Shown here: positions 61,474 through 63,868 of the stretch, one piece after another
Position numbering within the stretch: the stretch's first letter is position 1
Layout: each line of letters starts with the position of its first letter
Assembly: GCF_009914755.1 (NCBI RefSeq)
Contig: NC_060929.1
Reading direction: 5' to 3' (one strand)
Source of the DNA: the human T2T-CHM13v2.0 reference genome, Homo sapiens
DNA: 64,000 nucleotides
Translations under genes and position numbers: made by a program
Notes under the pieces: generated by a model
The model's database searches: none
Seen by the model: the letters and a program-made list of their open reading frames with translations, nothing else
What the model was told of the DNA's origin: nothing

Positions 61474-61741
61474 AGAAAAAAGGAAAATGTTCACAGGAGT
61501 CAAACTTGTTCTCCTCTTCCTCTTCTTCGTAAGTTCTAGAGCTGACAAACACTGGGGTATACTGCAATAAACCATGTTCCAATTCCTATAAAAAATACTA
61601 ATTATTGTCAGAATTATTTCATGAATCCTGAACACATTTGATGCTCATTGACTTCAAGAAAAGGGACGAGACTGGCTGCTACAAGAAGGCATCTACAAAA
61701 CATTTGAGAATGCCAGGAGTGCAAAGAATGAATTGCTAGGA
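61474..61741. repeat. Donor copy of a 268-bp local duplication
   Basis: Matches 62180-62448 except 3 substitutions and a 1-nt indel. Confidence 0.98.
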
Positions 61742-61949
61742 TTTTCTGTGTTCACCCCTATTCAACTAGCCTTAAACATGGGAATAAAAATGTTTTAAGT
61801 ACACGTACATGAACATGTATATATGTGTATGCATATCAGAGGCTTGGTCAAAACTCAGCCAACATAGGCTAGAAACTGCTTTGCCACTCTTGGAAGCCAC
61901 AGATTTGCTGTTTTAACTTCTCTGCACTTATATTTCTAACTTGTAAAAT

Positions 61950-63868
61950 AAAAATAGATCACCTAAGAGAGAAGGCTGGAATTCAACACGGAAGTGACAC
62001 CTAGCATGAAAAACAAGAGGAAAGTGAAGTAGCCTGCTCAGCTGGGATTAGCAGGGAGTCTGGAGGGGGCTCCCTAATGTGAGGAAAGAGTAGGTGAGTA
62101 GCCCCCAGTGGCCCACCTTCCTACCATGGACTCCTGCAATCCTAGCCACTGGAGAGTCCTTTGACCCACGCAAGCCCTGAGAAAAAAGGAAAAACGTTCA
62201 CAGGAGTCAAACTTGTTCTCCTCTTCCTCTTCTTCGTAAGTTCTAGAGCTGACAAACACTGCGGTATACTGCAATAAACCATGTTCCAATTCCTATAAAA
62301 AATACTAATTATTGTCAGAATTATTTCATGAATCCTGAACACATTTGATGCTCATTGACTTCAAGAAAAGGGACGAGACTGGCTGCTACAAGAAGGCATC
62401 TACAAAACATTTGAGAATGCCAGGAGCGCAAAGAATGAATTGCTAGGACATAGGGCACTGGCTGGAGACCCCATGATGGCATTGCTTCATATGGGGAGCT
62501 CACACTGGGTCACCCCACCCACCCTCCCTCTTACCCCACTCTTAAGGCACTCCAGCAAGGTACCATTTTGAAAGCCCAGCAGACTGCATCCTACCCTGGG
62601 ACCCCACAGACCTTGCAACTCCAGATTCCTTGAGCCCCATTGACCTCCCCCTAACGCAGACCCTGCTGCTTCTGGCTGCTGCCTCCATATCCAATGTGGG
62701 GGCCACTGGAAGCTACCCACCATCCCCATCAGCAGGGTACCGTACATTTAGAAGCACCCTGAGAACAGGCTACCCCACCAGCAACTACCACCTGGGGCCA
62801 AAGTGTGTGCTCCCAGTGGCCCTCCTAAGGCTTCTGCCAATGAAAGCAACCCCAGCAACATGGCTAGGGTGTAGCTGCTGGTCCTCCCATCCAAGCATTC
62901 CACTGAGGGCCTGGAAATCACCACGCCCCTGCCTACCATAGCTAGTGCCTATATATACCATCGGGGGGCCTGAGGCTCACCTCTGTCTCCCTTCTCCCTA
63001 GTGCCCATGCAGGGGCCTGGGGATTGCTCAGCCCCATCTATTCCTGTTGGCACCTGAGCACTCATCCTGAAGGCCTGGAGATGGGTTCACCCAACCTGCC
63101 ACTACCATCACAGCCAGCATACACCCCCCACCCACAGACATGAACCACCTGTGGGCCTGGGAAATGGCCTGCAGCCACCTTGAAAATCAGTTGGGACTAC
63201 TTGGGTACCAGAGGATTGTCCTGCCACTGCAACTGCCATCACCCACACCATGCCTGATGCCCAGGGCCTATGGACCTGCCCATCCACCTGGCCCACAGCT
63301 GCCATTGCCAGCACCTCAGCAAGCTGACTGGAAGCCCCCAGATCAGCCCGCCTGGACACACTAACACTGATGCCAGCATATACCACATTTACCACCAACT
63401 GATTTTCTATAAAGGTGCCAAGTATATACACTGAGGAAAGGACACTCTCTTCACTAAATGGAATAGAAAAAACTGGATATCCATATGCAGAAGAATGAAA
63501 CTGGACCCATCTCTCACCCTGTACAAAAATCAACTCAAATCAGTTAAGGACTTAAACATAAGACCCAAAATTATGAACTACTACAAGAAAACATAGGGAA
63601 AACAATTCAGGACATCAGTCTGACCAAAGATTTTATAGCTAAGATCTCTAGATCACAGGCACCAAAAAGAAAAATAGACAAATGGGACTATATTAAACTA
63701 AAAATTCTTCTACACAAGAAACCAACAGACTGAAGATACAGCTTGTTGAATGGGAGAAAATATTTACAAGCTATTTATCCAACAAGGGACTAGTATCCAG
63801 AATATACAAGGAACTCAAACAACTCAACAGTAAAAGACCACAAATCATCCTACTAAAAAGTGGGTAAA
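61950..63868 (+). mobile_element. L1 (L1PB/L1MA-type): 5'UTR fused to late ORF2
   Basis: GC-rich 5'UTR to about 63385, then 'ccaactgatttt..aaaggtgccaag...tgcagaagaatgaaactggaccc' (late ORF2). Confidence 0.85.
62180..62448. repeat. Inserted copy of the 268-bp duplication inside the L1 5'UTR
   Basis: Direct alignment with 61474-61741; interrupts L1 'caagccctgaga...catagggc'. Confidence 0.98.

What the first reader, a model, noticed from the sequence alone, without database searches (positions are those of the whole stretch)
61474..62448. Young 268-bp non-tandem templated insertion into an old L1, with the empty site visible in the same window
Seen: 61474-61741 reappears at 62180-62448 in the same orientation with only 4 differences, separated by 438 bp of unrelated DNA. 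There is no poly-A and no TSD. The related L1 at 50233-50257 reads CAAGCCCTGTGACTAACATAGGGAG on the minus strand, whereas here CAAGCCCTGAGA-[insert]-CATAGGGC. The insert therefore replaced only about 3 nt and shares AGA with the host at the left junction and A at the right. Known: this pattern fits locally templated break repair (Pol theta, SDSA or MMBIR), not retrotransposition. Inference: an ape-age event, and the direct repeats now predispose to a ~707-bp deletion or duplication.
Basis: partly seen in the sequence, partly recalled or inferred. Interest (0 to 1): 0.7.

Follow-up and report, generated by a model that had tools for sequence, protein, structure and literature searches.

The report
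Ordinary repair-mediated duplication in old L1
A 269-base stretch of non-coding human DNA has a near-identical copy 438 bases downstream, inside an old L1 repeat, likely the scar of a repaired chromosome break from the last few to about fifteen million years; this is an ordinary kind of event, of which hundreds are already catalogued.

Summary
Window 61474-61741 recurs at 62180-62448 (3 substitutions, 1 one-base indel), and a whole-genome search finds only these two copies. The downstream copy interrupts an old L1. In 45 of 55 related L1 copies exactly 4 nt (mostly CTAA) lie where this one has the insert. So 3 nt were lost, with 3 nt of microhomology on the left, 1 nt on the right, no poly-A and no target-site duplication. 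The net gain is 262 bp. This meets every sequence-testable criterion of the 'repair-mediated duplications' of Pace et al. 2009 (PMC2671141; 824 human cases found in interrupted transposons). The locus is not among that paper's 39 proximal chr5 rows, so it is an unlisted member. A control scan of 255 kb turned up a second, inverted candidate, so such events are not rare. Divergence (1.1%) points to the human or African-ape lineage; no primate sequence or population data were available. The claimed predisposition to a 707-bp deletion is untested and probably weak (longest perfect match 164 bp). No gene or annotated element is touched. Interest is low.

The parts
61474..61741 (+). Donor (original) copy, 268 bp, single-copy non-coding DNA, 37% GC, 2 CpG
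   Evidence: no Rfam match at gathering score in 61000-63000
61742..61949 (.). Single-copy spacer DNA between the donor and the start of the host L1
61950..62179 (+). Left fragment of the host repeat: 5' segment of an old L1 (5' UTR of L1M type; subfamily label recalled, not from a call), 71-75% identical to its 39 listed genomic relatives
62180..62448 (+). Acceptor (inserted copy), 269 bp; first 3 nt (AGA) and last 1 nt (A) shared with the host; 3 host nt lost; no poly-A, no target-site duplication; 5 CpG
62449..63400 (+). Right fragment of the host L1 5' segment, continuing in register with the left fragment
63435..63864 (+). Decayed L1 ORF2 remnants (ORF2p residues 927-975 and 1024-1065), which support calling the host an L1; an Alu follows at about 63870
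   Evidence: E 1e-10 and 3e-7 against LINE-1 ORF2p chains; Pfam gave no L1 family; Alu
50233..50257 (-). Empty-site equivalent in a related L1 5' segment in the same window (about 49620-50560), 70-77% identical to the host flanks

Best explanation
This is a 269-bp copy of nearby DNA inserted into an old L1 with the loss of 3 bases, likely made in one germ-line event in which a broken DNA end used the neighbouring sequence as a template before rejoining (a repair-mediated duplication, SDSA-like). Shown: which copy is the insert, the 3-nt loss, the 3-nt and 1-nt junction overlaps, the absence of retrotransposition marks, and two copies only. Inferred: a double-strand break inside the L1, resection, priming, about 265 nt of synthesis, release and rejoining. 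Two routes give the same product. (a) The left end primed through AGA on the donor in a sister or homologous chromatid and was joined to the right end on 0-1 nt. (b) The right end primed through 1 nt on the resected left arm, copied the donor leftwards and annealed its new end to the AGA at the left tip. Route (b) has the geometry of direct-repeat templated insertions, in which the second microhomology tends to be longer than the first, but at a much larger scale. The sequence cannot separate (a) from (b). The product is most likely neutral.
For: Insert polarity and 3-nt loss from 55 paralogs. Only two genomic copies. No poly-A, no adjacent target-site duplication, and no TTTT/A site at the junction. 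Size 269 and distance 438 lie within the published class (mean 162, maximum 619 bp; under 5 kb), and microhomology plus deletion was seen in 9 of 39 inspected proximal cases, none of which had poly-A/T. Close analogues in the table: a 265-bp human-specific insert in L1MB3 at 844 bp and a 284-bp one in MER5A1. A second candidate in 255 kb of control sequence.
Against: The microhomology is short and partly within chance: P(3 nt or more at one of two junctions) about 0.10; P(1 nt or more at a junction) 0.42. The empty site is inferred from paralogs only 65-75% identical, not from an orthologous ape allele. The published SDSA label is itself inferred from junction features. A replication template switch would leave the same scar. 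All three substitutions put a CpG in the acceptor and not in the donor, which this model does not predict.
Confidence: 0.75

Rival explanations
1. A replication fork stalled in the L1, switched back about 706 bp to the donor on AGA, copied 269 nt and switched forward again (FoSTeS/MMBIR), with no two-ended break.
For: Direct orientation, upstream donor and short microhomologies fit. Two differences lie 10-15 nt from the left junction, as error-prone restart might leave (inference).
Against: The second switch lands within 3-4 nt of the point of departure, which a held second break end explains naturally and a free template switch does not (inference).
Confidence: 0.12
2. An RNA from the donor region was reverse-transcribed and used as a patch at a break (class 2 TSIP, or endonuclease-independent L1 machinery).
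For: Class 2 TSIPs also lack target-site duplications and poly-A and show microdeletion and microhomology.
Against: TSIP donors are described as distant, whereas this one is 438 bp away; no gene is annotated in the window (hub annotation); the one AATAAA in the donor lies about 170 nt before the insert's end.
Confidence: 0.05
3. Two events: a 707-bp tandem duplication joined at AGA, then a deletion that removed the second copy of the spacer.
For: A 3-nt microhomology is also usual at tandem-duplication junctions (general knowledge), and the final structure is the same.
Against: The deletion would have to end within about 4 nt of the end of the duplicated unit: roughly 0.4-2% if its end were uniform over 400-2000 bp.
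Confidence: 0.04
4. Canonical L1-mediated retrotransposition (class 1 TSIP or transduction).
For: The insert lies in an L1 and starts with an A-rich run.
Against: No poly-A or poly-T tail of 5 nt or more at either end, no target-site duplication (3 nt lost instead), no TTTT/A site.
Confidence: 0.01
5. Assembly artefact.
For: No reads or second assembly were examined here.
Against: The copies differ at 4 positions, three of them CpG-type changes, and the insert splits an L1 in register. A false duplication would be expected to give identical copies (inference).
Confidence: 0.01

Closest known systems
Repair-mediated duplications (RDs), Pace, Sen, Batzer and Feschotte 2009, PMC2671141 (read: main text parts 1-5 of 8, Methods passages, Table S1 part 1 of 15 and 120 of its 125 'chr5' hits)
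   Same: An insert of 50 bp or more that interrupts a transposon in register, one donor within 5 kb, more than 50 bp apart, microhomology plus a small deletion, no poly-A; size and distance inside the reported range.
   Different: This locus is not among the 39 chr5 acceptor rows of the under-5-kb sheet. No orthologous empty site was seen here. It is larger than the mean (269 vs 162 bp) and closer than the mean (438 bp vs 1.2 kb).
'Doublets' (short paired local duplications) of Thomas et al., as described within PMC2671141 (original paper not seen)
   Same: Local, non-tandem, near-identical pair proposed to come from break repair.
   Different: Those surveys dealt with duplicons under 100 bp; this one is 269 bp.
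Class 2 templated sequence insertion polymorphisms, Onozawa and Aplan 2016, PMC5110952 (passages read)
   Same: No target-site duplication or poly-A; microdeletion and microhomology at the junctions.
   Different: Distant donor, proposed RNA intermediate, and polymorphic by definition; here the donor is adjacent and polymorphism is unknown.
Pol theta templated insertions (TINS), bioRxiv 10.1101/2019.12.20.882852 (passages read)
   Same: Direct repeat of flanking DNA at a break; weak first microhomology and longer second one.
   Different: TINS tracts are rarely over 10 nt per round and come from within about 30 bp; here 269 nt in one piece from 438-706 bp away.

Membership tests
Repair-mediated duplication (Pace 2009) | Insert of 50 bp or more between two same-orientation transposon fragments that resume within 30 bp of each other | tested here: met
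   45 of 55 paralogs have exactly 4 nt at the site, 54 of 55 within -5 to 10; tested against paralogs, not a RepeatMasker consensus
Repair-mediated duplication (Pace 2009) | Insert found at exactly one other place in the genome | tested here: met
   2 matches of 2 candidates in the 3.1-Gb assembly; the search skips very common words
Repair-mediated duplication (Pace 2009) | Donor more than 50 bp and less than 5 kb away on the same chromosome | tested here: met
   438 bp
Repair-mediated duplication (Pace 2009) | No poly-A/T tail; junctions with microhomology, deletion or filler | tested here: met
   3-nt and 1-nt overlaps, 3-nt loss, no filler, no tail; the microhomology alone has chance probability about 0.10
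Repair-mediated duplication (Pace 2009) | Insert is not itself a nested transposon, retrogene or part of a segmental duplication | tested here: met
   Donor plus flanks (61200-61960) match only this locus; flank paralogs are 65-75% identical
Repair-mediated duplication (Pace 2009) | Orthologous empty site in a related primate | not testable with these tools
   The genome tool holds no relatives; four papers asked for by id for their SV tables were not held (searches cover three papers)
Class 1 TSIP / L1 target-primed insertion | Target-site duplication, poly-A tail, TTTT/A target | tested here: not met
Class 2 TSIP | No target-site duplication or poly-A; NHEJ-type junctions | tested here: met
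Class 2 TSIP | Donor in a distant genomic region | tested here: not met
   donor 438 bp away against the definition
Class 2 TSIP | Polymorphic among humans | not testable with these tools
   no population data available
Pol theta TINS | Short tract (rarely over 10 nt) templated from within about 30 bp | tested here: not met
   269 nt from 438-706 bp away
NAHR substrate | Uninterrupted identity at or above the minimal efficient processing segment (300-500 bp meiotic; sharp drops near 134-163 bp mitotic) | tested here: inconclusive
   Longest perfect run 164 bp; the same review notes events on under 50 bp between nearby repeats

The most novel reading that the evidence does not exclude
The duplication is human-specific and still segregating, and its four differences were made by error-prone synthesis during the repair itself (three substitutions that each leave a CpG in the new copy, plus an A-run slip next to the junction) rather than accumulated later. 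The locus would then show an empty allele, a filled allele and perhaps a recurrent 707-bp collapse, a natural three-state record of long-range templated end repair in the germ line.
Probability: 0.07. Interest if true: 0.4.

Novelty: new member of a known kind. Interest (0 to 1): 0.15.

Why it matters
It matters little on its own: one more example of a documented class, in intergenic DNA about 19 kb before the first annotated base of PDE4D on this strand's coordinates, touching no annotated gene or element. It is a clean teaching case because an empty-site paralog lies in the same window. It would be a modest marker for primate or human population history if lineage-specific or polymorphic, and one data point for asking which polymerase makes insertions of hundreds of bases from templates hundreds of bases away. 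That question needs a genome-wide set, not one locus.

Tried and rejected
Dispersed repeat: rejected, two copies only. Tandem repeat: none reported over the pair in 56000-64000. Structured RNA in the donor: 0 Rfam matches at gathering score in 61000-63000. Pfam on 6 ORF2-like peptides: no L1 family, two weak unrelated hits below cut-off; the PDB sequence search of 2 of those peptides did give LINE-1 ORF2p. Longer microhomology at the left junction: the host's last 6-7 nt have no match in the 880 bp upstream on either strand. Flanking target-site duplication of the host L1: only a 6-nt A-rich word, not convincing. Listing in Pace 2009 Table S1: not found in 39 of 39 proximal chr5 rows or by number search (one search covered the distant sheet; 5 of 125 hits, all in the distant sheet, unseen). 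Print mention of this locus: one search on RAB3C/PDE4D/intergenic/structural variant listed 15 of 50 papers, none evidently on it (listing only); a coordinate search was not run. Dating by primate or population SV tables: three papers were not held and two searches for others gave nothing usable (listings only); bioRxiv supplements were closed and may bear on age and polymorphism. A wider random base-rate sample of the genome was not obtained, so the control is limited to 255 kb, mostly L1-centred loci.

Full report
Observation. The pair is as described. Self-BLAST of the window aligns 61474-61741 with 62180-62448 on the same strand over 269 columns at 98.5%; the repeat finder gives a start-to-start spacing of 707. 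The differences are one extra A near 62190 and three substitutions (61488/62195, 61555/62262, 61720/62427). A search of the whole assembly returns these two places only, for the donor alone and for the donor with its flanks. The tool warns that very common words are skipped, but an old dispersed repeat did show up readily when the L1 flanks were used (43 and 40 matches).

Which copy is new. The DNA on both sides of the downstream copy belongs to an old repeat with relatives at 65-75% identity. From 59 fetched loci (the in-window paralog included), 1 weak match and 3 duplicates were dropped. In 45 of the remaining 55, exactly 4 nt lie between the equivalents of 62182 and 62449; 54 of 55 have between -5 and 10 nt, none over 100, and none contains the insert. 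The majority reads CCCTG-AGA-CTAA-CATAGGG. The host reads CCCTG-AGA-[insert]-A-CATAGGG. The donor begins AGA (preceded by T, not G) and ends GGA. So the downstream copy is the acceptor, 3 nt (CTA) were lost, and the overlaps are 3 nt on the left and 1 nt on the right. The net gain is 262 bp. The repeat is an L1: two peptides from 63435-63864 match LINE-1 ORF2p at E 1e-10 and 3e-7, although Pfam found no L1 family in 6 peptides. That the interrupted segment is the 5' UTR of an L1M-type element is recalled, and the 5' and 3' segments could be separate insertions.

Not retrotransposition. The insert has no poly-A/T tail, no adjacent target-site duplication and no TTTT/A target. These are the class 1 TSIP features, and they are not met.

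Mechanism. The simplest account is one repair event: a break in the L1, templated synthesis across the donor, and rejoining with a 3-nt loss. Either end could have primed (see best explanation). The near-exact return to the point of departure favours a held second end over a free fork switch, and makes a tandem duplication followed by deletion unlikely (0.4-2% coincidence under a crude uniform model). The microhomology is weak evidence: by simulation on local sequence, P(3 nt or more) is 0.05 per junction and 0.10 for either of two. Pol theta insertions in mammalian cells are usually under 10 nt per round and from within about 30 bp (passages), so canonical TMEJ does not fit the scale even though the geometry of route (b) resembles it. 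All of these enzymatic steps are inference.

Age. Three substitutions in 268 give 1.1% (95% interval 0.2-3.3%); 0 of 258 non-CpG sites differ (upper bound 1.2%). With recalled divergence values for chimpanzee, orangutan and macaque (1.2, 3.1, 6.5%) and branch counts taken or derived from Pace 2009, the posterior is about 0.29-0.55 human-only, 0.44-0.63 shared with African apes, 0.01-0.08 shared with orangutan, and about 0 older. Human-specific RDs averaged 0.89% in that paper. 'Ape-age' is therefore reasonable and can be narrowed, but no orthologue was seen. If some differences arose during copying, or came from a different haplotype used as template, the event could be younger.

An oddity. 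All three substitutions leave CpG in the acceptor and not in the donor (5 vs 2 CpG), while the flanking L1 is heavily CpG-depleted (observed/expected 0.07-0.13 vs 0.52 in the acceptor). That all three involve CpG has probability about 0.01-0.05 under recalled rate ratios, and that all favour one copy about 0.25. It was noticed after the fact, and without an outgroup loss in the donor cannot be told from gain in the acceptor. I leave it unexplained and give it little weight.

What is known. Pace et al. 2009 (PMC2671141) screened interrupted transposons and found 824 proximal repair-mediated duplications in human: mean 162 bp, maximum 619 bp, donor within 5 kb; microhomology plus deletion in 9 of 39 inspected cases and no poly-A/T in any; 15 human-specific, and one polymorphic of 10 genotyped. 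This locus meets every criterion testable here. It is absent from all 39 proximal chr5 rows of their Table S1. Their pipeline required matching RepeatMasker names and was a stated minimum, so a miss is unsurprising; absence of the insert from hg18 is the other possibility, and I could not check it. As a rough base rate, a scan of 57 sequences (255 kb: the window, L063 and 55 L1-centred loci) for pairs of 60 bp or more at 90% identity or more, 50-5000 bp apart, found this pair and one other: a 97-bp inverted copy in locus L045, which also interrupts an L1 5' segment in register against paralogs L005 and L006.

Instability. Recombination between the copies would remove or add 706-707 bp. The longest perfect match is 164 bp. 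The review read here gives 300-500 bp for efficient human meiotic NAHR and steep drops near 134-163 bp in cell culture, but also reports events on under 50 bp between close repeats (passages). So it is possible, probably rare, and unshown.

Verdict. A real feature, correctly read in outline, and a new member of a known kind with no sign of function. Interest 0.15.

Noticed in passing
L045:1937-2033 and L045:2348-2444 (G000:C17:13575039-13575135 and 13575450-13575546): A second candidate repair-mediated duplication: a 97-bp inverted copy, 96% identical, 314 bp from its donor, interrupting an L1 5' segment of the same family with about 3 nt lost against paralog L005; the genome search gave these two places plus one weak partial match. 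Not checked against the Pace table.
   Followed up: partly
window 61488/62195, 61555/62262, 61720/62427: All three substitutions leave a CpG in the acceptor and not the donor, although the surrounding L1 is strongly CpG-depleted.
   Followed up: partly
window 49620-50560 (minus strand): The related L1 5' segment keeps many CpGs (observed/expected 0.36 vs 0.07-0.13 in the host L1 at 62 kb), holds a long C-rich/G-rich run near 49750-49850, and coincides with the RefSeq enhancers at 49568-50192 and 50193-50791 in the hub annotation.
   Followed up: no
window 61950-64000 and L063:1000-2280: The host L1 passes from its 5' segment (ending about 63400) directly to ORF2 residue about 927, so ORF1 and most of ORF2 are missing; it lacks roughly the first 120 nt seen in the 50-kb paralog, carries an Alu at about 63870 and a second Alu-like piece further on, and ends about 1.27 kb beyond the window.
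   Followed up: partly
window 56440-56480: Perfect 21-bp tandem duplication, two copies.
   Followed up: no
window 52757-52952 and 51127-51252 vs 54415-54544: Two older diverged local similarities (72% over about 105 bp, nearly tandem; 77% over about 130 bp, 3.2 kb apart) in the self-BLAST; they could be ancient duplications or fragments of dispersed repeats.
   Followed up: no
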